Assembly: GCA_016936575.1 (NCBI GenBank)
Contig: JAFGXQ010000013.1
Span: 2,835 to 66,834 of the forward strand
DNA from: Deltaproteobacteria bacterium
Lineage (GTDB): Bacteria; Myxococcota_A; Polyangia; JAAYKL01
Direction: 5' to 3'
Length of the DNA: 64,000 nucleotides
Shown: positions 14,024 to 25,742 of the stretch, piece after piece
Numbering within the stretch: the first letter of the stretch is position 1
How the letters are laid out: the number at the start of each line of letters is the position of its first letter
Translations under genes and position numbers: made by a program
Notes under the pieces: generated by a model
Databases searched by the model: none
Told to the model about the DNA's origin: nothing
What the model saw: only the letters and a program-made list of their open reading frames with translations

Positions 14024-16501
14024 ATGAAAAACAACTATTATGAAATCAAATTGGCGCTCTTTCTGGTTTTCTTTTTCGCATCCATGTACGCCTACGGCAG
14101 TGACGACGTCAGCCCCGGTCTGCATATCGATGCCGGTGGAGAAGCCATTCCGCTGCCCCTGAAAAGCACTACTGTTCGGGGAAATATCAAAGGATTTGTC
14201 GCGGACATCAAAGTGGTGCAGGAATTCGTCAATCCGTACGACAAGCATATTCAAGCCACATACGTGTTTCCACTGAGTGCTTCCGCCGCTGTGTACCACA
14301 TGGAAATGAAATTCAAAAGCACAGTGGTAAAAGCGGTCATCAAGAAAAAAGAAGAGGCGCAACAAATATATGACGAGGCGGTCCAGGCAGGGAAAACCGC
14401 AGCGCTCCTGGAACAAAACCGGCCCAATATTTTCACCCAAAAGGTAGGAAATATTCCCCCCGGCGAAAAAGTGACCGTAACCCTCACTTATCTGGAACTG
14501 CTTCCGTACGAACAGGGTGTATCGTCGTTTGTTTTTCCAACGGTTGTGGGGCCCAGATACATCCCACAGGGCGCCCCCACCGGCCTTCCCGATAAAAACC
14601 CTCAGGGCCGCGTCGCAGACAACGCACGTGTTCCGGATGCCAGCGCCATCACGCCGCCGTCATTCGCGGAGGGAGAAACCGGTGCCCATCGCATTGACCT
14701 GCGCATCACCGTGTACCCCAAAGTGGCCATACAGACGTTGACCTCTCCCTCGCACCAGATTTCGGTCTCCAGGCAAAGTAAAGAAAAGGCGGTTGTTACC
14801 ATTAAAAAAACCGATACGGTTCCCAATAAGGATTTCGTCCTAAAAATCGACGTGAGAGATAACGCGCCTGCGGTTGCCGTACTTACTCACAAAGAAAAAG
14901 AGGATGACGGCTACGTAACTCTGGCGATTCAGCCGCCGGCCCACGTGGCACCCAAAGATGCCACCCCCAAAGATCTGTTTTTTGTGGTGGATAACTCCGG
15001 TTCCATGAGCGGTGCACCGCTGAATGCGTGTAAAGATTTGATTAAAGAAGCACTCACTCATCTCAACCCCGGTGACCGCTTCACCGTGATGCGGTTTTCC
15101 GACAGCGTTTCGACCTTGTCGTCCGCACCGCTGGCCAACACCAAAGCAAACGTACAACGGGCAGTGCAGTATGTGAATGATATGCACGGAATGGGCGGAA
15201 CCGAAATGCTGTCGGGAATCAGGCGCGCACTCGAAGGCAAACCGGAAAACGGCCGTGTGCGGATCGTTTTCTTTTTAACTGACGGCTACATCGGTAATGA
15301 CAACGAAATTCTGGCGGCAGTGAAAGATGAAAACCACGCGAACGCCCGGTTGTTTTCTTTGGGTGTAGGTTCCTCGGTAAACCGATACCTGCTTTCGGGC
15401 ATGGCGCGTCTCGGCCGGGGAAAAGTACAATTTGTGCGCTACGATGAAGACCCCAAACCGGTGGTTGAAAACTTTTATCGAATGGTAAGAAACCCGGTGC
15501 TGACCGACATTTCTTTAAAGTGGAACGGCGTATCCGCAACGAATCAGGTGCCCCAGGTGATTCCGGATCTGTTTGACGGTGAACCATTGGTTGTACATTC
15601 CCGGTACACCGAAGGCGGCGACGGCGAGCTCGAGATTTCGGGGTTTTTGGGCAATAAATACTGGCGGAAAAAAATCGCAGTACATCTTCCGAACACCAAT
15701 CAGAACCCGGACATTGCCAAGTTGTGGGCACGCGCAAAGATCAGCATGTGGTCCGATATTGAAACCGGCAGACCCGGAGCGCATCGGGAAGATATTGAAA
15801 CGTTGGCCATCGAACACAATCTGATGAGCCAGTATACCTCTTTTGTCGCCGTGGCTGAAACCATCTCCCGTCAGGAAGGGGAGCCGTTGATTCCGGTGAC
15901 CCAGCGAATTCCACTTCCTGACAGCGTGTCGCAACACGCGCTGGGTACACTTTCGCGGTATGAAATTCCCCCGGGTGACCCGTTTATCGCGGTAAAGGCG
16001 CCGAGCGATGTAAAAAAAGTCACTGCGGTATTTCCCTTCGGATTGGTCAAAGATCTTCGTTACGATGCGTCGCGAGACCGATGGCGCGGCAGATTTCTGG
16101 TTCCCACCGGCATACCGGACGGCCACTATGCCATCGTCATTGCAATTACCCACAAAGACGGAACCGTCGAACTGAATACCGAAATGTTTCATCTCGATAG
16201 TGAAGCCGCGGAGTTTATTACCAACTTTGACAACAAAAAAATCCAGTCCGGAAAAGGATTGCTGCTCAAAGTTGATACAATCGAGCCGGCTGCAGAAGTA
16301 TACATTCATTGTGAGGCGCTGGGACTGAACCGGGTTCAGTTCCTGCAGGAGACAGACGATGGCATTCGATGGGAGAAGTGGATTTCATTCGACAAAACAA
16401 TCGCGCCGGGCGCCTATTCAGCGCTGGTGGTAATGAGAGACACGGCGGGAAATCGCATTGAACAAACCGTAACCATCCATATCGTCGGAGCGAAGAAATG
16501 A
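14024..16501 (+). CDS. VIT (vault inter-alpha-trypsin) domain plus von Willebrand factor A domain protein
   Basis: 825 aa. Signal peptide. N-terminal VIT-like domain. vWA MIDAS motif DNSGSMSG with downstream FFLTDGYIGNDNE. Long C-terminal extension. Confidence 0.8.
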   Translation: MKNNYYEIKLALFLVFFFASMYAYGSDDVSPGLHIDAGGEAIPLPLKSTTVRGNIKGFVADIKVVQEFVNPYDKHIQATYVFPLSASAAVYHMEMKFKSTVVKAVIKKKEEAQQIYDEAVQAGKTAALLEQNRPNIFTQKVGNIPPGEKVTVTLTYLELLPYEQGVSSFVFPTVVGPRYIPQGAPTGLPDKNPQGRVADNARVPDASAITPPSFAEGETGAHRIDLRITVYPKVAIQTLTSPSHQISVSRQSKEKAVVTIKKTDTVPNKDFVLKIDVRDNAPAVAVLTHKEKEDDGYVTLAIQPPAHVAPKDATPKDLFFVVDNSGSMSGAPLNACKDLIKEALTHLNPGDRFTVMRFSDSVSTLSSAPLANTKANVQRAVQYVNDMHGMGGTEMLSGIRRALEGKPENGRVRIVFFLTDGYIGNDNEILAAVKDENHANARLFSLGVGSSVNRYLLSGMARLGRGKVQFVRYDEDPKPVVENFYRMVRNPVLTDISLKWNGVSATNQVPQVIPDLFDGEPLVVHSRYTEGGDGELEISGFLGNKYWRKKIAVHLPNTNQNPDIAKLWARAKISMWSDIETGRPGAHREDIETLAIEHNLMSQYTSFVAVAETISRQEGEPLIPVTQRIPLPDSVSQHALGTLSRYEIPPGDPFIAVKAPSDVKKVTAVFPFGLVKDLRYDASRDRWRGRFLVPTGIPDGHYAIVIAITHKDGTVELNTEMFHLDSEAAEFITNFDNKKIQSGKGLLLKVDTIEPAAEVYIHCEALGLNRVQFLQETDDGIRWEKWISFDKTIAPGAYSALVVMRDTAGNRIEQTVTIHIVGAKK

Positions 16502-18342
16502 AAAATCTTCATCGAAAAGTGGGTCTGATGCTGATTTCATTTATTCTGGGGGGAATACTGGGGTTGACTTCGGTTCATGCGGCAACGTCGGTGGTCTTAA
16601 CCCCCACTGAGGAATATACCAACACCGGTAATGTGCACGATATTCTGATTACCGAAGATAGCATTTGGGCAGCCACCGACGGCGGGCTGGTGGCATATGA
16701 TAAAACGCGTCTGCGCGAAACGCATCGATTGACCAGCAAGGACGGGTTGTTCGGGAATGCACTGCGATCGCTGCATGCAAAATCGAACACAGCTATCACC
16801 GTTGGCGGCGATTTCGGAAGCGCGAATATAACATTCAAAGCGGACGGCAAGGCTACGGTGTCTGATGTGGAGCGCCACCACCTGACAACGTTTGACCCGA
16901 TTGTCGATTTTCTCACCATTGAAGAGCAAGTATACGCACTCCATTTTCAGACCGGACTTGTCGCAATGAGTGGAAAGCGAATGGAATTACCGGTCGCACA
17001 CCGCCTGTTCTGGAACACCGGCGCTGTCAATGGCGGGTTAGTGGCGCTGGGTGCGGCCGACGGCACGGTTGTTGTGTACGATGTGTCCCGAAAAATGGTT
17101 GCGTATACACTGCAGTTTGTTTCGCCGACAATCAAACTGGTGCCATACAAAAATGGATTTATTGTCGCGACACAGACAGAACTGTACACGGTTCAAAACG
17201 GCATTGCGCATCCGCTGCGGCTTTCTGCCGGCAACCAGTCAGTAGCGATTCTAGCGACGGGACTGGCAAACGTGTCTGCCGACCATGTGCTGTTAGGTAC
17301 GGCAGACGGAATGCTGCTGAGGTTGAAAGACGGTACGGTACAGCGGGAAGCCCAATTTGCGGGAGAACGAGTAACGACAATTGAACCGGAAGGCAACCAG
17401 ATATGGTTAGGCATCAGTCAGAAAGGGCTGGTCAGATATTCCTTGTTCGATAATACAACCGTATATCTGCGAAACGAATCTGAGATTTGTTCTAATCATG
17501 TCACCCAGAGTCTGTATCATGGTGACACGCTGGTGATTCGCACATTTGACAGCGGTGTATGCTACTTGTCGAAGCAGGGCTGGAAACAGCTGCAGGCCGG
17601 AAAATCGCAGTACGTGCATGGTTTGGCGAGCGACGGCAAAACGCTGGTGGTCACCGATTCAGACGGTATCACATTATATGACGAGCAGCTTCAGCCCGTT
17701 GAAGAATCCCGATACATTGTGGGCCCCATGCACTGGTTGTCGCGTTCCGCCGCACTGAGTGCGGTCAGTCCGAAAAGAGGCCTCTTTTTTATTGCCAGTC
17801 CGTTCGGCATTGCCAAGTTGCAGCGCATGAATGATCGGTTTAAAACCACCTTCTGGAAGAAGAAGCGGGGAATTCCCGGAGACATCACATCGCTGGCTGC
17901 GGACGATTCGTTTTTGTATATCGGAACAGAATCCCGCGGCGTACGGGTCTTTTCGCACAAAGGAAAATTCATAACCGATTACCTCGACCCGACTCATCTC
18001 CCCGAAGCGTGGACCATGACGCTCAGCACGTCCGAAAAGGGTCTGTTTGTAGGTACCTGTCAGGAAGGGGTGGCAGAGATAGACAACAATCAAAAAGTAA
18101 CGTTTTACAACGCCCATACCGGTCTGGCGGACAATCGTATCATCGCAGTGGCAACATTTTATTCCGGTACTTTTGTAGGTGGACTCCACGGCCTCTCGTA
18201 TATCGACGGCGCCGGCAACAGTGTCCACTTCGAACATATGGCAGCGCCCGACCCCAGAAGCGCTTCGATATATGTGCACAACCAAACCATGTGGTACGGC
18301 ACAGAATCGGGACTGATTTCATATCGTGTATCCAATAACTGA
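16498..18342 (+). CDS. secreted beta-propeller protein (two-component-regulator propeller, Reg_prop-like repeats)
   Basis: 614 aa. Signal peptide. Repeated W..T..GL / LW.GT..GL units. Start overlaps upstream stop (ATGA). Confidence 0.65.
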   Translation: MKNLHRKVGLMLISFILGGILGLTSVHAATSVVLTPTEEYTNTGNVHDILITEDSIWAATDGGLVAYDKTRLRETHRLTSKDGLFGNALRSLHAKSNTAITVGGDFGSANITFKADGKATVSDVERHHLTTFDPIVDFLTIEEQVYALHFQTGLVAMSGKRMELPVAHRLFWNTGAVNGGLVALGAADGTVVVYDVSRKMVAYTLQFVSPTIKLVPYKNGFIVATQTELYTVQNGIAHPLRLSAGNQSVAILATGLANVSADHVLLGTADGMLLRLKDGTVQREAQFAGERVTTIEPEGNQIWLGISQKGLVRYSLFDNTTVYLRNESEICSNHVTQSLYHGDTLVIRTFDSGVCYLSKQGWKQLQAGKSQYVHGLASDGKTLVVTDSDGITLYDEQLQPVEESRYIVGPMHWLSRSAALSAVSPKRGLFFIASPFGIAKLQRMNDRFKTTFWKKKRGIPGDITSLAADDSFLYIGTESRGVRVFSHKGKFITDYLDPTHLPEAWTMTLSTSEKGLFVGTCQEGVAEIDNNQKVTFYNAHTGLADNRIIAVATFYSGTFVGGLHGLSYIDGAGNSVHFEHMAAPDPRSASIYVHNQTMWYGTESGLISYRVSNN

Positions 18343-18354
18343 GACATATAGTAG

Positions 18355-18374
18355 GGGCGGTTCGCAAACCGCCC
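18355..18374. terminator. perfect 8-bp stem hairpin GGGCGGTT-CGCA-AACCGCCC between convergent genes
   Basis: Seen directly. Located between the propeller gene stop (18342) and the ccdA stop (18375-18377). Candidate bidirectional terminator. Related copy at 19581..19608. Confidence 0.45.
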
Positions 18375-19061
18375 TTATATCACGATATACATCCAACAAT
18401 AATACATCCCGACGCCGATAAACACCAATGCGGTGACGCGACGCATCCAGGGTTCCCATTTTGCAACCGCGTTGAATGCACCTGCCAGCCGGTTCGCGGC
18501 AAACGCGATGAGCGTTGAAAACGCCACCACCGGCAAAGCGGTGCCAACCCCATATAATACCGGCATCAGCACACTCGATTCATGGGCTACCGCCAGCGGC
18601 AGCAGACTGCCGAAAAACAGCGCCGCCGATACCGGGCAGAAGGTGAGTGCAAACACCGCGCCCAAAAGAAACGCCCCCCAGATGCCCAACGCCTCAACCT
18701 TCTGCTGCAATTTTCCGGTCCACCTTCCACGCCCTATCCATGGCCAGGGAATCACATCCAGCAAGAGCATGCCTGCAATTATCAGAACCGGTCCCAACAC
18801 CTGATTCATCCGACTCTGCAAAAACAGGGAAACCTCAGGCACCGAAATCAAACTTTTAATTGCAATGAACGCAACCGCAAAGTAGCTTGCCATACGTCCC
18901 ACAGTGTAGAGTGCACCGGCCAGCAGCACCTGCAACGGACGCTCGACCCGCTTGCCGATAAAGGACACCGCCGCGATATTGGTCGCCAACGGACACGGAC
19001 TGATTGAGGTAAGAATTCCCAACCAGAGCGCACTACCGACCGCAACCACCATCGATTCCAT
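18375..19061 (-). CDS. ccdA: cytochrome c biogenesis/disulfide-transfer membrane protein CcdA (DsbD transmembrane-domain family)
   Basis: 228 aa. Six predicted TM helices. Conserved SPCPL and TFCP(V) cysteine motifs of the CcdA/DsbD-beta family. Start overlaps upstream stop (TAATG). Confidence 0.75.
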   Translation of the reverse strand: MESMVVAVGSALWLGILTSISPCPLATNIAAVSFIGKRVERPLQVLLAGALYTVGRMASYFAVAFIAIKSLISVPEVSLFLQSRMNQVLGPVLIIAGMLLLDVIPWPWIGRGRWTGKLQQKVEALGIWGAFLLGAVFALTFCPVSAALFFGSLLPLAVAHESSVLMPVLYGVGTALPVVAFSTLIAFAANRLAGAFNAVAKWEPWMRRVTALVFIGVGMYYCWMYIVI

Positions 19062-19543
19062 TACAGTGCTGTCCCCAATTTGTCTAAGTAGGCTCGAACA
19101 TTTTCGGCAATATATGCAGAGAGCTTCTCCTCAGAGTGGGCGTATTCCCATACTTTGTTGGCATTTTCGAACATCAGCACATCGTTGCCTTTCTGAGCAG
19201 CGACGACCATGGTGCCGAAAGACAACTGGAACTGTTTCACATAGGCTTTATTCGCTTCTTCTTCCATATTCAGTTCGTGAAACACGAGCATCCCCGCTTC
19301 CATATCCTTGGCAAACGCTTTCTCCACCACCGTCTCGATGGCGGACTGAATACCCATGCAGGTAGCGCACCTTTTGGTATTATGAAAATAATATACATGA
19401 ACCGAGTCGGGTACAGCAGCCACATCCTTCTGCGTCTTCGTGCCGGAAGAAACGTCTTCAGCGTTTGCATTTGACGCCGAATTTCCGCAGGACAACAACA
19501 ACCACACAGCGATACTTGAAACAAACCACAGATGAATTTTCAC
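19061..19543 (-). CDS. thioredoxin-like CxxC lipoprotein (probable redox partner of CcdA)
   Basis: ORF 19061..19618. Probable GTG start at 19541-19543 giving VKIHLWFVSSIAVWLLLSCG (lipobox LLSC). CATC motif in HNTKRCATCMG. Confidence 0.5.
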   Translation of the reverse strand: MKIHLWFVSSIAVWLLLSCGNSASNANAEDVSSGTKTQKDVAAVPDSVHVYYFHNTKRCATCMGIQSAIETVVEKAFAKDMEAGMLVFHELNMEEEANKAYVKQFQLSFGTMVVAAQKGNDVLMFENANKVWEYAHSEEKLSAYIAENVRAYLDKLGTAL

Positions 19544-19580
19544 TTTTCTGCCTTTCTTGTTCAACAGGGCGACTCGAGAT

Positions 19581-19608
19581 ATAGGGTCGCTTCGCGAATC
19601 GCCCCTAC
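19581..19608. repeat. 28-bp imperfect palindromic element (second copy of the 18351..18378 element)
   Basis: ATAGGGTCGCTTCGCGAATCGCCCCTAC. Its reverse complement matches GTAGGGGCGGTTCGCAAACCGCCCTTAT (18351..18378) at 23/28 positions. Lies between the trx2 gene and the Trx-lipoprotein gene. Confidence 0.35.
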
Positions 19609-19632
19609 AAGTTCTCAACCCCTACCCAATCA

Positions 19633-19869
19633 TCAGCTCGCGCTGGTAATCCATGAAACAATTTCACCGGTCGCGGGTATTTTGCCGCAGCTTTTTACTT
19701 CTTCGTTCACCACCAGCGCGGGCGTCATCATCACACCATACGCCAAAATCTCGTCAATCTGATCCACTTTGGTCAGTTGAACTTCTTTTCCCGACTCCAG
19801 AATCGCTTTCTCTGCCTGCGCATACAGCTGGTTGCATTTAGCACATCCGGTTCCAAGCACTTTCACCAT
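19633..19869 (-). CDS. small thioredoxin-fold protein (redox-active disulfide protein 2-like)
   Basis: ORF 19633..19893. Probable start MVKVLGTGCAKCNQ (about 79 aa). CxxC near N-terminus and a second C-terminal Cys, as in the small Trx-like proteins that accompany COG0701 permeases. Confidence 0.65.
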   Translation of the reverse strand: MVKVLGTGCAKCNQLYAQAEKAILESGKEVQLTKVDQIDEILAYGVMMTPALVVNEEVKSCGKIPATGEIVSWITSAS

Positions 19870-19919
19870 CATTTTCAATTCTCCTTCTGACAAAAATCAT
19901 CTCAAAATAGTTTTACATG

Positions 19920-21086
19920 TCACAAAACAGCGCCGTATACCATACCGGCGACGGTGGAAAGCACCACCACGAGTGCGACAAAAGTGAGCGTTTTTCGAAT
20001 ACCCATCACGCTCCTGATCACCAACATGTTCGGAAGCGATAATGCCGGCCCCGCCAACAGCAACGCCAGCGCCGGCCCCTTTCCCATTCCCGCATTCAGA
20101 AGCCCCTCCAAAATGGGAACCTCCGTAAGGGTGGCAAAGTACATCAACGCACCCGCAACCGAGGCAAACAGGTTGGCCCGTATCGAATTTCCGCCCACCA
20201 TGTTTTCAATCCACCTCTGGGGAATCACGCCCACACCCCCGTCCGGACCACCCAGCAAAAAGCCCGCTACAATAACCCCCGCAAAAAGCAGCGGCAGAAT
20301 CTGTTTCGCGAACATCCAGCTGGCATCTTTCCAGGCCGCCAGTTCGTCTTTCTGAAACCAGATCCGAATGGAAATCACCAACAACACTAAAAAAGCGCCG
20401 CTTATCCACCACTTGGCTTGAAACAACCACGAATATGCGCCGCTGCTTTTTCCGGGGCTTCCAAAGTTCGCGAAAATTAGAATCCCAAGCATGGCTGCGA
20501 AATAAATGCCATCTTGCCACAACGCCCGAGTCTGATCTGCTTCGGGCAGTACCACACCCCCTGCTTTTTTTTCAGACTCTTCTTTCTGAAAAATCAGGTG
20601 CATGAAAAGACCGATCACCACTGAAAACACAACTGCGCCCACCGCTCTGGCAATTCCCAGCTCCATGCCGAGCACCCGGGCCGTTAAAATAATTGCCATT
20701 ATATTGATGGCCGGCCCAGAATACAGAAACGCCGTTGCCGGCCCCAACCCAGCGCCCCGCTTATAAATACTCGCAAACAGCGGCAACACCGTACATGAGC
20801 AAACCGCAAGTATGGTTCCCGAAACCGCGGCCACCGGATATGCCACTATTTTTCGAGCACCGGGGCCGAGATACTTCATTACCGCCCCCTGGCTGACAAA
20901 AACACTGATGGCGCCGGCAATAAAAAAAGCCGGCACCAAACAAAGCAGAACATGTTCTCTGGCGTACCATTTCAGCAGCCTGAAACTTTCAACTAACGCA
21001 TTCACAAAGGTGTCATTTTGTAGCGGCAGAAACCACATCGCGGTAAAAACGACTGCTATCAGTATCAGTTTGGTCCGTTCTTTCAT
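19920..21086 (-). CDS. COG0701/DUF318 family permease (ArsP-like; CSC motif)
   Basis: ORF 19920..21113. Multi-TM protein with AVCSCTVLP motif resembling the TPFcSCS signature of ArsP-type permeases. Probable start at MKERTK, because the first Met overlaps the operator palindrome. Confidence 0.7.
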   Translation of the reverse strand: MKERTKLILIAVVFTAMWFLPLQNDTFVNALVESFRLLKWYAREHVLLCLVPAFFIAGAISVFVSQGAVMKYLGPGARKIVAYPVAAVSGTILAVCSCTVLPLFASIYKRGAGLGPATAFLYSGPAINIMAIILTARVLGMELGIARAVGAVVFSVVIGLFMHLIFQKEESEKKAGGVVLPEADQTRALWQDGIYFAAMLGILIFANFGSPGKSSGAYSWLFQAKWWISGAFLVLLVISIRIWFQKDELAAWKDASWMFAKQILPLLFAGVIVAGFLLGGPDGGVGVIPQRWIENMVGGNSIRANLFASVAGALMYFATLTEVPILEGLLNAGMGKGPALALLLAGPALSLPNMLVIRSVMGIRKTLTFVALVVVLSTVAGMVYGAVL

Positions 21087-21103
21087 TCTGAATTGCCACT
21101 CCA

Positions 21104-21123
21104 ATATGGCCACATGGCCATAT
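21104..21123. promoter_or_regulatory. inverted repeat ATATGGCCA-CA-TGGCCATAT (candidate ArsR-family operator)
   Basis: Seen directly between the arsR stop and the permease start. Second copy at 21463..21482. Confidence 0.5.
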
Positions 21124-21146
21124 TGCCAATATTGGGTTAAAAAATT

Positions 21147-21437
21147 TTATTTTCGTTCGCTCAACACCTGGGTGGTGCATGAAAAGAAATTCAGCACACA
21201 AGGGGTCAGCAAGGTGTAATACACCACATTTCCTTCTCTGCGATCATCGACAATTCCATTGGATCGCAATACCGCCAGATGTTTTGAAACCGTCGACTGA
21301 TCAGAACCGATTATTTCCGTCAGCTCGCCCACTGAGCATTCACCGCGGCTCAGGCGATGCACGATCATCAACCGAGATTCATTAGCGAGCGCCTTTAATA
21401 TTGCGGCCTGTTGTTTAAATACGGTACGTTTCGGCAT
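21147..21437 (-). CDS. ArsR/SmtB family transcriptional regulator
   Basis: 96 aa. HTH ...LKALANESRLMIVHRL..GECSVGEL...STVSKHLAVL typical of ArsR/SmtB. First gene of the minus-strand operon. Confidence 0.8.
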   Translation of the reverse strand: MPKRTVFKQQAAILKALANESRLMIVHRLSRGECSVGELTEIIGSDQSTVSKHLAVLRSNGIVDDRREGNVVYYTLLTPCVLNFFSCTTQVLSERK

Positions 21438-21462
21438 GTATCACTTTCCTTCACAAAATGAA

Positions 21463-21482
21463 TATGGCTACTTGGCCATATT
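21463..21482. promoter_or_regulatory. inverted repeat ATATGGC-TACTTG-GCCATAT upstream of arsR (candidate autoregulatory operator)
   Basis: Seen directly about 26 bp upstream of the arsR start codon. Shares the ATATGGC/GCCATAT half-sites with 21104..21123. Confidence 0.5.
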
Positions 21483-21669
21483 GTCAAGTTCAGAAAAGCC
21501 GAATATCAAGGCAACCATTTAAAAACAAAACGACCGATACAAACCGCTTTTAAATCGTTTTCGCATCAAGTACGATGGACAACAACCTTAAATACACAAT
21601 CATGCGCTTTGCCCGACAATTTCATGCCCGGCAAAAAAATGCATGGGACGCCCTACTGAAAGGAACAAA

Positions 21670-23751
21670 ATGAGCTTTTTAAAACTTATCCTTATTTCTT
21701 TTTGCGCACTTTTCACCATGACCGCTTGCACCGACGAACCGACCGGGGCTCCATTTACAGCGTTCCCGAAACCGGTGCAGGCGCAGTATGCGAAATATTA
21801 CAACTCTCCCAATGACTTTTACGAATTGGACCGTTCGGGCACACTGGGCAATCAAGCCACCGGGGCGCTGTACTGCGAGCAACGCAGCGGGGGAGAAATC
21901 ATTTATACCGATTCGGGCAATGCGGTGCGGGGAACCTGCGGTCTGGCCTTTGTATCGCCACACTACGCCATCACCGCCGCACATTGCGTGGACGTAGACT
22001 CCTGCGGCTATCCGGGTGTTACATTCAAAGTTCGACAATTTGACATTCGCGAGTTGGATGAGTCTGTGCTGGACGACGTATTCACCCTGTCCAATGTGCT
22101 GAATCCCGAATTCGAGACCTGGCAGCCGAATCACTTTCTGACTGATTCAGATGGATACCACTACAATGAGTATGAATGCAGCGTGGAAATTTTGTGTGAC
22201 AGCGCCGGCAATTTCGGACGACGCAACGGTGACATTTGCCAGTTGAACGGCACGTCTTTCTATCGCGACATCGCGCTGGTGCATTGCCCGAATCGCGCAG
22301 ATGACGGCCCATACCTGGAAGTGGCGCCCAGCGTCAACCCCGGCGACAATGTTCTGGTGCACTGGTTTCACGAAATCGTCAATCTCCCGTTGCCTGAAAA
22401 CTGTACAGCGCCGGAATGCGCCAATGCCAACGCGTTTTACAGCTTGCGGTCATCGATGGCGAACAACTTTCACTACATGGGGTTTGATTCCACCCGGGAA
22501 ACGCAGCTGATGCCGCTCATCACGGTGGCTTGGGGACGAAACGACACCGAGACTGATACAGAAACATCCGTTCAAAGCTCCGTGCCGCCGGAGTTGGTCG
22601 AAAACACGCATGCATTGCTCTCGACCGATACCTTCTACGCCAACACCGACATCTGGGGATGCCACGGCATATCCGGTTCCGGCTTACTGGTAGTGGGAGA
22701 TGACGGTGTGGAACGATATGTGGGCCCTGCGCAGCTCGGCTCCTACACCTCGTCCTTGGACACCAATCTATGCGAAACTTCTGATGCGGTGCCGGGACAG
22801 GAAATGCTCCGTTTCGGGCAGTCTTACTATTCCGCAGTATTGGCAGCGTGGGCATTGACGAATGATCCCGCGCTGAATGTAGACACGGATACATCCGCGG
22901 ACAGTGATACTGCGCCAGATACAGACACATCGACAGATGCAGACACCGACAGCGACACCGATTCCGATTCCGATTCCGATTCCGATACCGATACCGATTC
23001 CGATACCGACAGCGACACCGATTCCGATTCCGATTCCGATACCGACACCGATTCCGATTCCGATTCCGACAGCGACACCGATTCCGATACCGATACCGAT
23101 TCCGATTCAGACAGTGACAGCGACACAGACACAGACTCCGATTCAGATTCAGATACCGACTCAGATACTGATTCAGATACCGATACCGATTCCGACGCGG
23201 ATACTGATTCAGATACTGATTCAGATACTGATTCAGATACCGATGCCGATTCCGACGCGGATACTGATTCAGATACCGATGCCGATTCCGACGCGGATAC
23301 TGATTCAGATACCGATGCCGATGCCGACGCGGACACTGATTCAGATGCCGACGCAGATTCCGACGCGGATACTGATTCAGACACTGATTCAGATACCGAC
23401 ACCGATGCCGACGCAGATACTGATTCAGACACCGACTCAGATACTGATTCAGATACCGATGCCGACACAGATTCCGACGCGGATACTGACGCAGACAGCG
23501 ACGATGGCCCGCCTTCGTCAGATTCGGACTCCGGCGGGTTGACCGATTCAGATTCGTCAACAAATACCGGTTCAGATTCGTTGCCGAATGCAGATTCAGA
23601 ACCATTGATGGATAGCGACACAGGTGAAACGCTTGCTGATGAAGAAGATGTTCACACCGAAGAGTCGTGCGGCTGTATGGTTCCGGGAATGCCTACTGCT
23701 CAGGATTCCGATTTACTGAATCTGATGATTCGGCTGTTTACCAATTCGTAG
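21670..23751 (+). CDS. S1 (trypsin-like) serine peptidase lipoprotein with long C-terminal acidic D-S/T/A repeat region
   Basis: ORF 21643..23751. Probable start [20 protein letters not shown] (lipobox). His motif YAITAAHCV, Asp in RDIALVHC, Ser region [11 protein letters not shown]. Then about 220 aa of DSDTD/DADTD repeats and a short C-terminal tail. Confidence 0.65.
22879..23563. repeat. low-complexity GAY-WCN hexanucleotide-type repeat encoding poly(Asp-Ser/Thr/Ala)
   Basis: Seen directly. Produces stop-free ORFs in several frames on both strands, which are artefacts. Confidence 0.8.
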
Positions 23752-23769: not shown

Positions 23770-24864
23770 TCAATATACCCACGGAATGATCCGCTTCGGC
23801 ACCTTCTGAACATATTCTTCCCACAGGGCACCGTATTTCGCGCGGCAGCGCTTCTCGTCATCGCGCTCCCGGGTGGTGAGCAGCAGCACATAGTACAGCG
23901 GATACAGCCAAGCCCACCAAACCAAGGGGTACCCCAACGAAAGTGTCAGTCCCGTTGCCATCAGTACCTCCCCCAGATAGTTGACATGACGGGATATTCC
24001 CCAGAACCCACTGCACAATAGCGAATGCGTACCGTCGGATACCACTGCCGGCTTGAATACGCCCATAAATGATTTGTCAGGTTGCGTCTTGAAATAAAAT
24101 TTCTGCATGTTGGCGCCGCGGGCGAACCCCCACCCCAGAAAAAAAATCGCAGCATACAACGCGAGTAATACCGGGGACAGGTTCGGGCTCGGCAGCGGGG
24201 CCACCGTCCACAATCCGACCGCATAGAAGTACGGGTAAAACGTAAGACACCCGAACGTAAGCTTAAAGCCGACACGTTCGGCAAACAGATCATACGTGTA
24301 CAGGTGTACCCGCTCAAATGTCATGTAATCTAAAAGAAACCAGAAAAACAAAACGGTGTACAGGATTACCGAAGGCGACGCATTGCCCGGGTGCTGCATC
24401 ACATGATGGGCCGCAAAGGACAGAATATTCAGACCCAGCAGGGTTGCCCCAACCAGATACAGAAACATTTTGGCGTCAACGCGGCGGTTGAAATACTGCG
24501 GATTCTTCGAGCGACCTAAAAAGAAGTCGGCAATGAAGCCGGGCTTCACCTTCGGTTTCCCGAGCACTACCGCCAAACTGCCGATCATTCCCAACGTGAC
24601 CGCCCCTGCCAATCCTTCCCAACGGTGGGTGTACAACCAATTGAAGGGAATAATAGATCCCAAACCCAACCCGCCGAATATCGCCATAGACAATAAAAAT
24701 ACGGCCATACCATTTAACCGGTACGTCAACCGCGTGCCGCTTTTTTCATCAACCACATAGCCGGCCACGCGACGTGCCGGCAGCACGATGTGCAACAGCA
24801 GCACGCCCGCGGTAATCAGCCACGGAGCGAAAAAACCTGCAATTGTATTCCATGTGATGTTCAA
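23770..24864 (-). CDS. ERG4/ERG24 sterol-reductase family (DUF1295-like) polytopic membrane protein
   Basis: ORF 23770..25194. The upstream 110 codons overlap the SDR gene in another frame. Probable TTG start at 24862-24864 overlapping the SDR stop (TTGA). C-terminal signature LLCSGFWGISRHVNYLGEVL matches the sterol reductase/DUF1295 motif. Confidence 0.6.
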   Translation of the reverse strand: MNITWNTIAGFFAPWLITAGVLLLHIVLPARRVAGYVVDEKSGTRLTYRLNGMAVFLLSMAIFGGLGLGSIIPFNWLYTHRWEGLAGAVTLGMIGSLAVVLGKPKVKPGFIADFFLGRSKNPQYFNRRVDAKMFLYLVGATLLGLNILSFAAHHVMQHPGNASPSVILYTVLFFWFLLDYMTFERVHLYTYDLFAERVGFKLTFGCLTFYPYFYAVGLWTVAPLPSPNLSPVLLALYAAIFFLGWGFARGANMQKFYFKTQPDKSFMGVFKPAVVSDGTHSLLCSGFWGISRHVNYLGEVLMATGLTLSLGYPLVWWAWLYPLYYVLLLTTRERDDEKRCRAKYGALWEEYVQKVPKRIIPWVY

Positions 24865-25742
24865 CGATTCTCTCCTCTCGTCTGCTCGACATTCTGAATG
24901 GAGTTTGCAGCCGACAGCTCCCGCATGGCGTTTCCCATAACCTGTACCGACAGCTTTCGGGGAAGCAGTCTTGTCATCATCCAATCCGCAAACCGATTCA
25001 TCCGACCGGGAATCACAAACGGCTTTCTCCCCAGTGCCCGAAGTGCGGTTCGCGCCACCACCGCTGCATCGAGCGTTCCCGGCGCTTCCCTGACTTCTCC
25101 ACTTTTTGACGCCACACTCAAGTATCCCGGCGTTCGAATCGCGCCCGCGCAGCAAACCGTGACATCCACCCCCAACGGGCGCAATTCGTACCACAGACTC
25201 TGCCCCAGAATGGAATTGAACGCCTTACTCGCCGCATACGCTGCCACACCAGAGGTGCCCTGGTTTCCGGATAAAGAAGACATCAAAACAACTCCCCCGC
25301 GACGCTCAATCAGCCTTGGAAGCAATGCATGAATCAGCAACAACGGCCCCCGAACATTCACATCGACGGTGCTGTTCAGCTCATGGGCGGTACGCTCAAT
25401 GAACGGCCCCACTTTCGAATAGGCGGCATTGTATATCAACAGTCCCGCCTGCTTTTCCTCAAATGCCTGTAAAAGCATTTTCCCTGTTTCAGGCGTTGAA
25501 AGGTCCGCCCCAATGCAGTGTACCGCAATGTGAAACTGATCTTTCAATTGGTCTCCAAACATTTGCAGCACGTCTTGCCGCCTCGCCACCAATATCAAAT
25601 TCAATCCCGCTTCGGCAAGCTGCGTCGCAAACGCTGCCCCCAGTCCCTCAGAGGCCCCCGCCACCAATGCCCACGGTCCGTATCTTTTCCTGAGTTTGTT
25701 ATTCACGTTCTTTCGCACTTTCTTTTGCCATCTGAAAACCAC
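24861..25742 (-). CDS. SDR family NAD(P)-dependent oxidoreductase
   Basis: 293 aa. Rossmann motif LVAGASEGLGAAFA. Catalytic YAASKAF (YxxxK). Translationally coupled to the downstream reductase-family membrane protein. Confidence 0.8.
   Translation of the reverse strand: MVFRWQKKVRKNVNNKLRKRYGPWALVAGASEGLGAAFATQLAEAGLNLILVARRQDVLQMFGDQLKDQFHIAVHCIGADLSTPETGKMLLQAFEEKQAGLLIYNAAYSKVGPFIERTAHELNSTVDVNVRGPLLLIHALLPRLIERRGGVVLMSSLSGNQGTSGVAAYAASKAFNSILGQSLWYELRPLGVDVTVCCAGAIRTPGYLSVASKSGEVREAPGTLDAAVVARTALRALGRKPFVIPGRMNRFADWMMTRLLPRKLSVQVMGNAMRELSAANSIQNVEQTRGENR

What the first reader, a model, noticed from the sequence alone, without database searches (positions are those of the whole stretch)
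18375..21482. ArsR-controlled redox operon (CSC-motif COG0701 permease, small Trx, Trx-lipoprotein, CcdA) with duplicated ATATGGC..GCCATAT operator
Minus-strand order is arsR, permease (AVCSCTVLP motif like ArsP-type permeases), redox-active-disulfide-protein-2-like Trx, CxxC lipoprotein, then CcdA, with ATG/TAA overlaps. Two copies of an inverted repeat with half-sites ATATGGC/GCCATAT lie upstream of arsR (21463..21482) and between arsR and the permease (21104..21123). This fits autoregulation plus operon control. The combination suggests a periplasmic thiol-reductant relay coupled to a (metalloid? organoarsenical? thiol?) permease. The substrate is unknown.
Basis: partly seen in the sequence, partly recalled or inferred. 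Interest (0 to 1): 0.55.

Follow-up and report, generated by a model that had tools for sequence, protein, structure and literature searches.

The report
ArsR-controlled arsP-like/arsEFG arsenic-defence operon
This is a real five-gene operon with a duplicated repressor-binding site, but it belongs to an already named and very widespread arsenic-island module (arsR, CxC permease, ArsE, ArsF, ArsG), so it is a new member of a known kind.

Summary
On the minus strand lie arsR (21437-21147), a PF03773 permease with AVCSCTVLP (21086-19920), a 79-aa thioredoxin (19872-19633), a CxxC lipoprotein (19543-19061) and a CcdA-like membrane protein (19061-18375). The palindrome ATATGGC-N6-GCCATAT occurs exactly twice in 64 kb, against 0.19 expected by chance.

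The last three proteins pass NCBI's curated thresholds for ArsE, ArsF and ArsG, the set reported for roxarsone and nitarsone resistance in Shewanella. So this is not an unknown system.

- **Synteny:** arsF sits directly upstream of arsG in 61 of 61 loci. Of 28 loci with enough flank, 21 carry all of arsR, permease, arsE and arsF, and 16 carry acr3, arsC, arsA or arsD within 6 kb.
- **Operator:** a promoter-operator module is conserved at both positions in four further loci.
- **Fold and topology:** ArsF is a secreted thioredoxin-fold protein. ArsG is CcdA-like with two invariant membrane cysteines. ArsE is a canonical cytoplasmic thioredoxin.

Verdict: new member of a known kind, modest interest.

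The parts
21459..21487 (-). Promoter-operator 1 upstream of arsR. TTGACA (21487-21482) abuts the imperfect palindrome CAATATGGCCA-ag-TAGCCATATTC. The -10 candidates, CATATT (spacer 15) or TATTCA (spacer 17), overlap the downstream half-site.
   Evidence: Sequence read. Exact motif match. Repeat and palindrome. The same TTGACAATATGGCCAAGT(A/C)GCCATA lies upstream of arsR in L001 and L008, with variants in L005 and L021. The promoter assignment is an inference; the consensus scanner did not call it.
21147..21437 (-). arsR: a 96-aa ArsR/SmtB winged-helix repressor with cysteines at 34, 80 and 87.
   Evidence: NF033788 at 92.2 bits (cutoff 55) and PF01022 at 50.4 bits. The C-terminal PC-x6-C pair is conserved in 16 of 18 clade members next to this module.
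21102..21129 (-). Promoter-operator 2 between arsR and the permease. TTGGCA abuts a perfect 11-2-11 palindrome that ends 16 nt before the permease ATG.
   Evidence: An equivalent second site lies between arsR and the permease in L001, L008, L021 and L069.
19920..21086 (-). PF03773 (ArsP_1/COG0701) permease, 388 aa, with a membrane CxC motif (AVCSCTVLP).
   Evidence: PF03773 at 259.8 bits. Below the cutoffs for SaoE (110 of 325) and SO_0444 (106 of 300). CxC is kept in 27 of 29 relatives and in the distant Bacteroidota permeases. More than 120 clusters at 67-79% identity are named only 'permease'.
19633..19872 (-). arsE: a 79-aa cytoplasmic thioredoxin-like protein with CAKC and the canonical cis-Pro motif MMTPAL.
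   Evidence: TIGR00412 'MTH895/ArsE family' at 96.8 bits (cutoff 62) and PF13192. CxxC and TP[AG]L are each kept in 45 of 47 relatives.
19582..19607 (.). GC-rich 26-nt palindromic element between arsE and arsF.
   Evidence: A second copy follows arsG. It is absent from related loci. Its role is unknown; it could be a REP-like element or an mRNA stem-loop.
19061..19543 (-). arsF: a 160-aa lipoprotein (signal ending LLLSC) with a thioredoxin-fold domain carrying YYFH-x3-RCATC.
   Evidence: NF040494 at 90.5 bits (cutoff 60). AlphaFold model at pLDDT 88.5, domain 97-98. All top PDB matches are thioredoxins. R58, C59 and C62 are conserved in 99-100% of 150 representatives. 141 of 147 have an N-terminal hydrophobic segment. 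No conserved cis-Pro.
18375..19061 (-). arsG: a 228-aa CcdA/DsbD_2-like membrane protein with invariant SPCPLATN (Cys23) and FCP (Cys142). Its ATG overlaps the arsF stop codon.
   Evidence: NF040495 equivalog at 286.6 bits (cutoff 200) and PF13386 at 52.6 bits. Invariant cysteines. The only PDB match is CcdA 5vkv.
18352..18377 (.). Second copy of the GC-rich palindrome, overlapping the arsG stop codon (18375-18377). It is a stem-loop without a T-run and could be a terminator or RNA end.
   Evidence: It folds at -16.4 kcal/mol, z = -2.8. The next gene (16498-18342, + strand) is convergent.

Best explanation
This is a self-contained, ArsR-repressed arsenical-defence operon of the widespread arsR / arsP-like permease / arsE / arsF / arsG type.

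**Regulation (inferred from sequence and conservation).** ArsR dimers would bind two near-identical promoter-operator modules. Each has a -35-like hexamer followed by a palindrome of the 12-2-12 kind. One lies upstream of arsR and gives autoregulation. The other lies just before the permease and acts as an internal promoter, a roadblock, or both. A thiophilic inducer, most likely a trivalent arsenical, would bind the regulator's cysteines and release it. The C-terminal C80-x6-C87 pair is the conserved candidate site.

**Effectors (inferred from fold, topology and invariant residues).** All four effector proteins work through cysteine pairs. The PF03773 permease, with its membrane CxC motif, would export a trivalent (organo)arsenical, as reported for Campylobacter ArsP. 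ArsE, ArsG and ArsF would form a split DsbD/CcdA-type relay:
1. Cytoplasmic thioredoxin ArsE passes its dithiol to the two membrane cysteines of ArsG.
2. ArsG passes it to the CxxC of the membrane-tethered periplasmic thioredoxin-fold protein ArsF.

This would deliver reducing power, or a dithiol ligand, to the outer face of the membrane, where arsenicals attack or are processed. [quoted passage not shown]
For: - **Family membership:** scores are above curated cutoffs for ArsE, ArsF and ArsG.
- **Synteny:** arsF is directly upstream of arsG in 61 of 61 loci. Of 28 loci with at least 3.5 kb upstream, 21 carry arsE, the permease, arsR and arsF together.
- **Arsenic context:** acr3, arsC, arsA or arsD lie within 6 kb in 16 of 28 loci. 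Examples are Prevotella arsF-arsG-trx-permease-arsC-acr3, arsR-arsC-permease-arsE-arsF-arsG and arsD...arsA-arsF-arsG.
- **Operator:** two exact copies in the window against 0.19 expected. Both form one 27-nt repeat that includes the -35 hexamer. Across loci and the window operon region there are 14 matches with up to 2 mismatches; shuffles of the loci alone give 2.15. Eleven of the 14 lie upstream of arsR or between arsR and the permease.
- **ArsF:** thioredoxin fold, invariant CxxC, and a signal peptide or anchor in 141 of 147 members.
- **ArsG:** Pfam DsbD_2, invariant SPC and FCP. CcdA is the only PDB match, at TM 0.53 against 0.17 for the next hit.
- **ArsE:** no signal peptide, and CxxC plus cis-Pro in 45 of 47 relatives.
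- **Literature:** ArsP exports MAs(III) and Rox(III) (PMC6205960). ArsG is listed among organoarsenical efflux transporters, and ArsE and ArsF among organoarsenical resistance proteins (PMC9144182).
Against: - Nothing here shows DNA binding, induction, electron transfer or transport.
- The window holds no other ars gene, and 12 of 28 related loci also lack one within 6 kb.
- The ArsR lacks every characterised As(III) site (types 1 to 3 and ArArsR, PMC11868830). Its single N-terminal Cys is shifted by one residue and is absent in L005.
- Sequence similarity of ArsG to solved CcdA is not significant on its own (E = 0.1 to 0.19), and the ArsG model has low confidence (pLDDT 61.5).
- ArsF lacks the cis-Pro that nearly all thioredoxin-fold oxidoreductases have, so it may not act as a conventional reductase.
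- The published study assigns ArsG an efflux role, not an electron-transfer role. I could not read that paper.
Confidence: 0.5

Rival explanations
1. The database names are literally right. ArsE and ArsF together are a nitroreductase for trivalent nitro-aromatic arsenicals (roxarsone, nitarsone). ArsG is a secondary efflux permease for the resulting amino-aromatic arsenicals. The PF03773 protein is a second, ArsP-type exporter.
For: NCBIfam NF040494, NF040495 and TIGR00412 all score above cutoff. The names derive from Chen, Zhang and Rosen 2019 (Environ Sci Technol 53:6182), which is cited in PMC9144182 and PMC10190100. A membrane cysteine pair could bind R-As(III) as a transport site, as proposed for ArsP.
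Against: ArsF is a thioredoxin fold, not a flavin nitroreductase fold. ArsF is extracytoplasmic and ArsE has no signal peptide, so the two cannot form one soluble enzyme in a single compartment. ArsG looks like an electron transporter. The family has about 2,700 clusters at 50% identity with E <= 1e-10, mostly from environmental metagenomes, while these arsenicals are synthetic compounds of the twentieth century (my own knowledge). A broader native role is therefore likely.
Confidence: 0.2
2. The cysteine pairs pass the metalloid itself, not electrons. As(III) or R-As(III) would move by ligand exchange from ArsE (a cytoplasmic chaperone) to the ArsG membrane cysteines and then to periplasmic ArsF. 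This would be a mercury MerP/MerT-style relay running outward, in parallel with the CxC permease.
For: Every effector has an invariant cysteine pair. ArsF lacks the cis-Pro, and that residue is known to keep thioredoxin-fold active sites from binding metals (my own knowledge: Su et al. 2007, Biochemistry 46:6903). Invariant H54, R58 and N92 surround the ArsF CxxC. In some loci ArsFG follow the metallochaperone and ATPase pair ArsD/ArsA.
Against: No relative of CcdA is known to carry metals. ArsE keeps all the features of a redox thioredoxin, including cis-Pro. There are no binding data. The idea rests on analogy only.
Confidence: 0.15
3. The module is not about arsenic in this organism. It would be a general envelope thiol or redox-stress system, responding for example to oxidants, reactive sulfur species, or copper and zinc. 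The ArsR-family regulator would sense through a C80-C87 disulfide switch, and the permease would move a thiol or a metal.
For: No ars gene lies elsewhere in the 64-kb window. The regulator lacks the known As(III) sites and shows weak similarity to the sulfide/sulfite sensor BigR, at 64 bits. PF03773 relatives include the SO_0444 Cu/Zn exporter and SaoE. The permease plus small-thioredoxin pair also occurs without ars genes on a Citrobacter plasmid and a Leptolinea plasmid.
Against: The BigR, SO_0444 and SaoE scores are far below their cutoffs. More than half of the well-flanked loci sit beside acr3, arsC, arsA or arsD. Most ArsRs of the wider clade keep the type-1-like CVC pair.
Confidence: 0.12

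Closest known systems
ArsEFG of Shewanella putrefaciens 200 (Chen, Zhang, Rosen 2019), as encoded in NCBIfam TIGR00412, NF040494 and NF040495
   Same: All three window proteins score above the curated cutoffs. PGAP annotates the same trio next to an ArsR and a PF03773 permease in Fulvitalea and Prevotella.
   Different: I could not obtain the Shewanella sequences or the paper, so I measured neither identity nor gene order against the type system. The fold and topology found here point to a dithiol relay rather than a nitroreductase plus an efflux pump.
CcdA/DsbD transmembrane thiol-disulfide relays (cytoplasmic thioredoxin, then CcdA, then a periplasmic thioredoxin-like protein such as ResA or CcmG)
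   Same: There is a six-helix-class membrane protein with one Cys-Pro motif in each half, and a membrane-tethered extracytoplasmic thioredoxin-fold partner encoded with overlapping stop and start codons. A dedicated cytoplasmic thioredoxin is also present.
   Different: ArsG matches Pfam DsbD_2, not the classic DsbD/CcdA model, and its match to solved CcdA is only marginal (E = 0.1). ArsF lacks the cis-Pro. The system is under ArsR control in arsenic islands, not in cytochrome c maturation loci.
ArsP, the methylarsenite/roxarsone(III) efflux permease of Campylobacter jejuni
   Same: Both belong to the same Pfam family, PF03773. Both have a pair of conserved membrane cysteines, which are reported as essential in ArsP (my own recollection of Chen et al. 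2015). Both lie in ars operons under ArsR control (PMC6205960).
   Different: The window protein is 388 aa and belongs to a distinct, very conserved clade. It shares only 24-27% identity even with the Bacteroidota permeases that accompany ArsEFG. I did not test orthology to CjArsP. PMC6205960 notes two arsP clades that may differ in function.
ArsR/SmtB repressors with 12-2-12 operators (R773 ArsR, AfArsR, CgArsR, SpArsR, ArArsR)
   Same: [quoted passage not shown] ArArsR likewise binds over the -35 element of its promoter (PMC11868830).
   Different: Its cysteine pattern (C34, C80, C87) fits none of the described sensing sites. A second full promoter-operator copy lies downstream of arsR.

Membership tests
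ArsR/SmtB transcriptional repressors | Winged-helix HTH_5 domain scoring above the family thresholds | tested here: met
   PF01022 at 50.4 bits (cutoff 22) and NF033788 at 92.2 bits (cutoff 55).
ArsR/SmtB transcriptional repressors | Palindromic operator of the 12-2-12 kind overlapping its own promoter | tested here: met
   The internal site is a perfect 11-2-11 palindrome and the upstream site matches 9 of 11 per arm. Each abuts a TTGACA or TTGGCA hexamer. Both are conserved in relatives. Binding was not tested.
ArsR/SmtB transcriptional repressors | A characterised As(III) site: type 1 Cys32/34/37, type 2 Cys95/96/102, type 3 Cys15/16/55, or ArArsR Cys41/80/82 (PMC11868830) | tested here: not met
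   Only C34 is present near the type-1 site, one residue before the Cys32 position, together with C80-x6-C87. Relatives keep CVC plus PC-x6-C. Arsenic sensing is therefore inferred, not shown.
ArsE (MTH895/ArsE thioredoxin-like, TIGR00412) | HMM score above cutoff, CxxC and the thioredoxin cis-Pro | tested here: met
   96.8 bits (cutoff 62). CAKC and MMTPAL are present in the sequence. Each is kept in 45 of 47 relatives.
ArsF (NF040494, 'nitrophenyl compound nitroreductase subunit') | HMM score above cutoff and gene adjacent to arsG | tested here: met
   90.5 bits (cutoff 60). arsF is upstream of arsG in 61 of 61 loci.
ArsF (NF040494, 'nitrophenyl compound nitroreductase subunit') | Nitroreductase activity or a nitroreductase-type fold | tested here: not met
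   The fold is a thioredoxin fold. All 50 listed PDB matches, 19 of them at E <= 1e-3, are thioredoxins or thioredoxin-like domains. The activity itself cannot be tested here.
ArsG (NF040495 equivalog, 'aromatic aminobenzylarsenical efflux permease') | HMM score above the equivalog cutoff | tested here: met
   286.6 bits (cutoff 200).
ArsG (NF040495 equivalog, 'aromatic aminobenzylarsenical efflux permease') | Efflux of trivalent amino-aromatic arsenicals | not testable with these tools
   This needs transport assays.
CcdA/DsbD membrane electron transporters | DsbD-type transmembrane domain with one essential Cys in each pseudo-repeat | tested here: met
   PF13386 at 52.6 bits (cutoff 24.9). 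Cys23 (SPCP) and Cys142 (FCP) are invariant in 62 sequences.
CcdA/DsbD membrane electron transporters | Fold similarity to solved CcdA (5vkv) | tested here: inconclusive
   CcdA is the only standout match (TM 0.53, 215 columns; next hit 0.17), but the model is at pLDDT 61.5. The sequence E-value is 0.1 to 0.19.
CcdA/DsbD membrane electron transporters | Extracytoplasmic thioredoxin-like acceptor and cytoplasmic thioredoxin donor | tested here: met
   ArsF is a secreted or anchored thioredoxin fold. ArsE is a cytoplasmic thioredoxin. Electron flow was not tested.
ArsP organoarsenical efflux permease | PF03773 membership with a conserved membrane cysteine pair | tested here: met
   259.8 bits. 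AVCSCTV is present and CxC is kept in 27 of 29 relatives.
ArsP organoarsenical efflux permease | Orthology to characterised C. jejuni ArsP, and MAs(III)/Rox(III) transport | not tested
   No CjArsP sequence was available in any accessible collection. Public names for the clade are only 'permease' or YraQ.
SO_0444 Cu/Zn efflux and SaoE efflux transporters | Equivalog HMM score above cutoff | tested here: not met
   106 bits against a cutoff of 300, and 110 bits against a cutoff of 325.

The most novel reading that the evidence does not exclude
The ArsE-ArsG-ArsF trio may be a widespread, ArsR-controlled CcdA-type dithiol relay, not the nitroreductase plus efflux pump it is currently annotated as. 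ArsF alone has thousands of sequence clusters. The relay would carry reducing equivalents, or As(III) itself by ligand exchange, to an atypical periplasmic thioredoxin-fold protein that lacks the cis-Pro. That would make it a general envelope defence against thiophilic metalloids in anaerobes, and the current database names would be misleading. The regulator's conserved C-x6-C pair would then be a previously undescribed ArsR sensing site.
Probability: 0.35. Interest if true: 0.55.

Novelty: new member of a known kind. Interest (0 to 1): 0.3.

Why it matters
For genome annotation the result is ordinary. The operon is one more copy of a common arsenic-island module. The public record under-annotates it: ArsG is named 'sulfite exporter TauE/SafE', and ArsF is truncated to 98 aa.

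Two points have wider use. First, a conserved promoter-operator module (TTGACA followed by ATGGCCA-N2-TGGCCAT) can now be used to find the regulon of this ArsR clade. Second, the fold and topology evidence suggests that the names propagated for ArsF and ArsG may describe a side activity rather than the mechanism. That affects how thousands of metagenomic genes are interpreted in studies of arsenic cycling.

Tried and rejected
- **Primary literature:** I tried to read the ArsEFG paper (pmid 31059239 and its DOI) and the papers on NfnB (PMC7606800), B. vulgatus ars (PMC4984537), ArsP (PMC4681449) and CjArsP (PMC4023722). None is held. Statements about their content rest on citing papers, on NCBIfam names, or on my own recollection, and are marked as such.
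- **Genome-contig scan:** a single-protein query returned only one locus, and no further scan of that collection was allowed. A metagenome scan with an alignment replaced it.
- **ArsF homologues:** the word-indexed search found only 6. The exhaustive profile search was needed.
- **ArsG structure:** the prediction was low in confidence, so the CcdA match is only supportive.
- **Permease phylogeny against characterised ArsP:** I could not do it because no reference sequence was available.
- **Other checks that found nothing:** the operator motif has no further copy in the window. Rfam shows no known RNA element in the region, only a chance sub-threshold hit. The window holds no further ars genes.
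- **GC-rich palindromes:** I considered them as conserved attenuators and rejected that reading, because they are absent from all related loci.
- **Promoter call:** the sigma-70 consensus scanner did not call either proposed promoter. The promoter reading rests on the conserved TTGACA and its fixed position relative to the palindrome.

Full report
**1. Observation**

The window carries five co-directional minus-strand genes.

| Gene | Coordinates | Length |
|---|---|---|
| arsR | 21437-21147 | 96 aa |
| PF03773 permease | 21086-19920 | 388 aa |
| Small thioredoxin (arsE) | 19872-19633 | 79 aa |
| CxxC lipoprotein (arsF) | 19543-19061 | 160 aa |
| CcdA-like membrane protein (arsG) | 19061-18375 | 228 aa |

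- The permease probably starts at the ATG at 21086. The alternative GTG at 21113 lies inside the palindrome, and close relatives are 388-392 aa long.
- The lipoprotein starts at a GTG and has a signal peptide ending LLLSC.
- Flanking genes are convergent (16498-18342, + strand) and divergent (21643-23751, + strand), so the five genes form a unit.
- Only the arsF/arsG junction overlaps, as TAATG. The other junctions are gaps of 47 to 89 nt.

ATATGGC-N6-GCCATAT occurs exactly at 21104-21123 and 21462-21481. It occurs nowhere else in 64 kb, even with two mismatches allowed. Chance expectation is 0.19.

The two copies belong to a 27-nt direct repeat that is 89% identical and extends into a -35-like hexamer. 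On the coding strand the sequences are TTGACAATATGGCCAAGTAGCCATATT and TTGGCAATATGGCCATGTGGCCATATT. The internal copy is a perfect 11-2-11 palindrome.

**2. What the genes are**

- **ArsR:** NF033788 at 92 bits and Pfam HTH_5.
- **Permease:** PF03773 (ArsP_1) at 260 bits. It falls far below the cutoffs for the SO_0444 and SaoE equivalogs.
- **Small thioredoxin:** TIGR00412, 'MTH895/ArsE family', at 96.8 bits against a cutoff of 62.
- **Lipoprotein:** NF040494, 'ArsF family', at 90.5 against 60.
- **Membrane protein:** NF040495, the 'ArsG family' equivalog, at 286.6 against 200, and Pfam DsbD_2.

[quoted passage not shown] That paper is cited in PMC9144182 and PMC10190100. PMC9144182 lists ArsG among organoarsenical efflux transporters, and ArsE and ArsF among organoarsenical resistance proteins. 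I could not read the primary paper.

**3. Relatives and context**

The exact proteins belong to an NCBI MAG labelled 'Deltaproteobacteria bacterium'. There ArsG is named 'sulfite exporter TauE/SafE family protein' and the permease just 'permease'. The Logan gene call on an identical contig (L090) truncates ArsF to 98 aa, starting after its CxxC.

The families are large.
- An exhaustive profile search for ArsF found 3,894 clusters at 50% identity with E <= 1e-3, and 2,708 with E <= 1e-10.

Synteny is strong. The module appears in these forms:
- Two related MAGs carry arsR-permease-trx-arsF-arsG, one of them with an extra DGC-domain gene.
- A Candidatus Raymondbacteria genome has the same genes in a different order.
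- A Fulvitalea plasmid has arsR-trx-arsF-arsG-permease.
- A Prevotella nigrescens element has arsF-arsG-trx-permease-arsC-acr3.
- Other loci have arsR-arsC-permease-trx-arsF-arsG and arsD...arsA-arsF-arsG beside a divergent arsR-acr3-arsC cluster.

I then analysed 87 non-redundant ArsG loci, 80 of them from a metagenome scan.
- arsF lies directly upstream of arsG in 61 of 61 loci with at least 600 nt of upstream sequence.
- Among the 28 loci with at least 3.5 kb upstream, 26 have arsE, 23 have a PF03773 permease and 27 have arsR.
- 21 of those 28 have arsR, the permease, arsE and arsF together.
- 16 of those 28 have acr3, arsC, arsA or arsD within 6 kb.

The arsenic link therefore rests on gene context as well as on database names. 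The window itself holds no other ars gene.

**4. The operator**

The promoter-operator module is conserved where expected.
- L001 and L008 carry TTGACAATATGGCCAAGT(C/A)GCCATA upstream of arsR, and a second, more degenerate copy between arsR and the permease.
- L021 has both copies.
- L069 has the internal copy.
- L005 has TTGACTCCATGGCCATATGGTCATAT upstream of arsR.
- L006 has TTGACAACATGGCCCGTTTGCCACAT upstream of arsF.

I scanned all loci and the window operon region with the core ATGGCCA-N2-TGGCCAT, allowing up to 2 mismatches. That gave 14 matches, while shuffles of the loci alone gave 2.15. Eleven of the 14 lie upstream of arsR or between arsR and the permease. TGGCCA-like hexamers recur with an 8-bp period, and the -35-like hexamer is the first of three.

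This is the arrangement expected for a repressor that occludes its promoter. ArArsR also binds over the -35 element of its own promoter (PMC11868830). The duplicated site is a conserved feature of this sub-clade. The simple sigma-70 scanner did not call either promoter, so the promoter assignment is inferred. Binding by ArsR is also inferred.

**5. The sensor**

The ArsR has cysteines at 34, 80 and 87. The PC-x6-C pair is conserved in 16 of 18 ArsRs of this clade that sit next to the module. Most relatives also have a type-1-like xCVC(E/D)L motif. In the window's sub-clade this has become GEC(S/T)V, with the Cys shifted by one position, and L005 has lost it.

None of the characterised As(III) sites summarised in PMC11868830 is present. 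A two-cysteine site would suit a trivalent organoarsenical, as reported for SpArsR in that paper. It would equally suit a disulfide switch. This question stays open.

**6. How the effectors probably work**

- **ArsF.** The AlphaFold model has mean pLDDT 88.5, with 97-98 across the domain. CxxC sits at the start of the first helix after strand 1. All top PDB matches are thioredoxins, and no flavin nitroreductase fold appears. Across 150 diverse representatives C59 and C62 are 100% conserved, R58 is 99% conserved, and YYFH and N92 are at least 91% conserved. 141 of 147 have an N-terminal hydrophobic segment, so the domain faces outward. The family has no conserved cis-Pro before strand 3; Pro frequency there is 6%.
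- **ArsG.** SPCPLATN (Cys23) and FCP (Cys142) are invariant. Its only PDB sequence hit is CcdA, at E = 0.1 to 0.19, with the first Cys-Pro motif aligned. The model is low in confidence, but CcdA 5vkv is the sole structural match, at TM 0.53 against 0.17 for the next hit.
- **ArsE.** It has no signal peptide. CxxC and the TP[AG]L cis-Pro motif are each kept in 45 of 47 relatives.

Together these give the classic layout of cytoplasmic thioredoxin, then CcdA-like membrane protein, then tethered periplasmic thioredoxin-fold protein.

ArsE and ArsF sit in different compartments, so they cannot form one soluble nitroreductase. If the reported nitro reduction is real, it is more simply read as a result of electron delivery through this relay.

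Two alternatives remain open. ArsG's cysteine pair could be a transport site for R-As(III), which is the literal database reading. Or the whole chain could pass As(III) by ligand exchange, as MerP and MerT pass mercury. The missing cis-Pro in ArsF fits the second idea, because that residue is known to prevent metal binding at thioredoxin active sites (my own knowledge).

**7. The permease**

It is a PF03773 member with the CxC motif, kept in 27 of 29 relatives. It belongs to a tight clade at 67-79% identity that public sources name only 'permease' or YraQ.

The permeases that accompany ArsEFG in Bacteroidota share only 24-27% identity with it but keep CSC. A permease plus small-thioredoxin pair also occurs without arsF and arsG on a Citrobacter IncF plasmid and a Leptolinea plasmid. 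ArsE may therefore serve the permease as well.

Campylobacter ArsP exports MAs(III) and Rox(III), and two arsP clades of possibly different function have been noted (PMC6205960). I could not place this protein relative to CjArsP.

**8. Verdict**

But this is a new member of a known, named and widespread module, not a new system. The new contributions are a conserved operator definition, evidence that the duplicated promoter-operator is a clade feature, an uncharacterised ArsR cysteine pattern, and a fold- and topology-based case that the current names for ArsF and ArsG may not describe the mechanism. Interest is modest at 0.3.

Noticed in passing
window 19061-19543; L090 2705-3001: The Logan gene call on an identical contig gives ArsF as a 98-aa protein (P0121). 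It starts at the Met right after the CxxC, so it loses the lipoprotein signal and the active site. The full ORF from the GTG at 19543 matches the family over its whole length.
   Followed up: yes
window 18352-18377 and 19582-19607: Two copies of a 26-nt GC-rich palindrome (TAGGGGCG.TTCGC.AA.CG.CCCTA) are the only ones in 64 kb. One follows arsG and one lies between arsE and arsF. They are absent from related loci, so they look like genome-specific REP-like elements or RNA stem-loops.
   Followed up: partly
window 21643-23751 (+): A 702-aa predicted lipoprotein is divergent from arsR. It has a low-complexity tract of roughly 250 aa made of Asp-Ser/Asp-Thr repeats and no Pfam match.
   Followed up: no
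window 23770-25194 (-): An ERG4/ERG24 sterol-reductase family protein (PF01222, 163 bits) is encoded in this bacterial MAG, which is an uncommon family for bacteria.
   Followed up: no
window 14024-18342 (+): A VIT-VWA protein of 825 aa is followed, with overlapping stop and start codons, by a 614-aa protein with no Pfam match. They look like a two-gene unit of unknown function, convergent on arsG.
   Followed up: no
L091 4983-6228 (Citrobacter IncF plasmid); L092 4611-6272 (Leptolinea plasmid): A PF03773 permease plus small-thioredoxin pair occurs on its own, without arsF and arsG. About 980 plasmid records, mostly enterobacterial and many from poultry and swine, encode relatives of the Bacteroidota-type permease.
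   Followed up: partly
L001 5082-5483; also L014, L024, L081, L085: A DGC-domain (PF08859) protein is inserted between arsE and arsF in several related loci, as an optional sixth gene of the module.
   Followed up: no
L006 883-6693: In one metagenomic locus arsF-arsG follow arsD, an AhpC/TSA protein, a VKOR-DsbA fusion and arsA. The operator-like sequence lies directly upstream of arsF. This links the relay to other envelope thiol-oxidoreductases.
   Followed up: no
L002 3606-3830: In the Raymondbacteria locus a 74-aa cysteine-rich protein that looks like a ferredoxin lies between arsR and the thioredoxin gene. The ArsR there keeps the canonical CVC motif.
   Followed up: no
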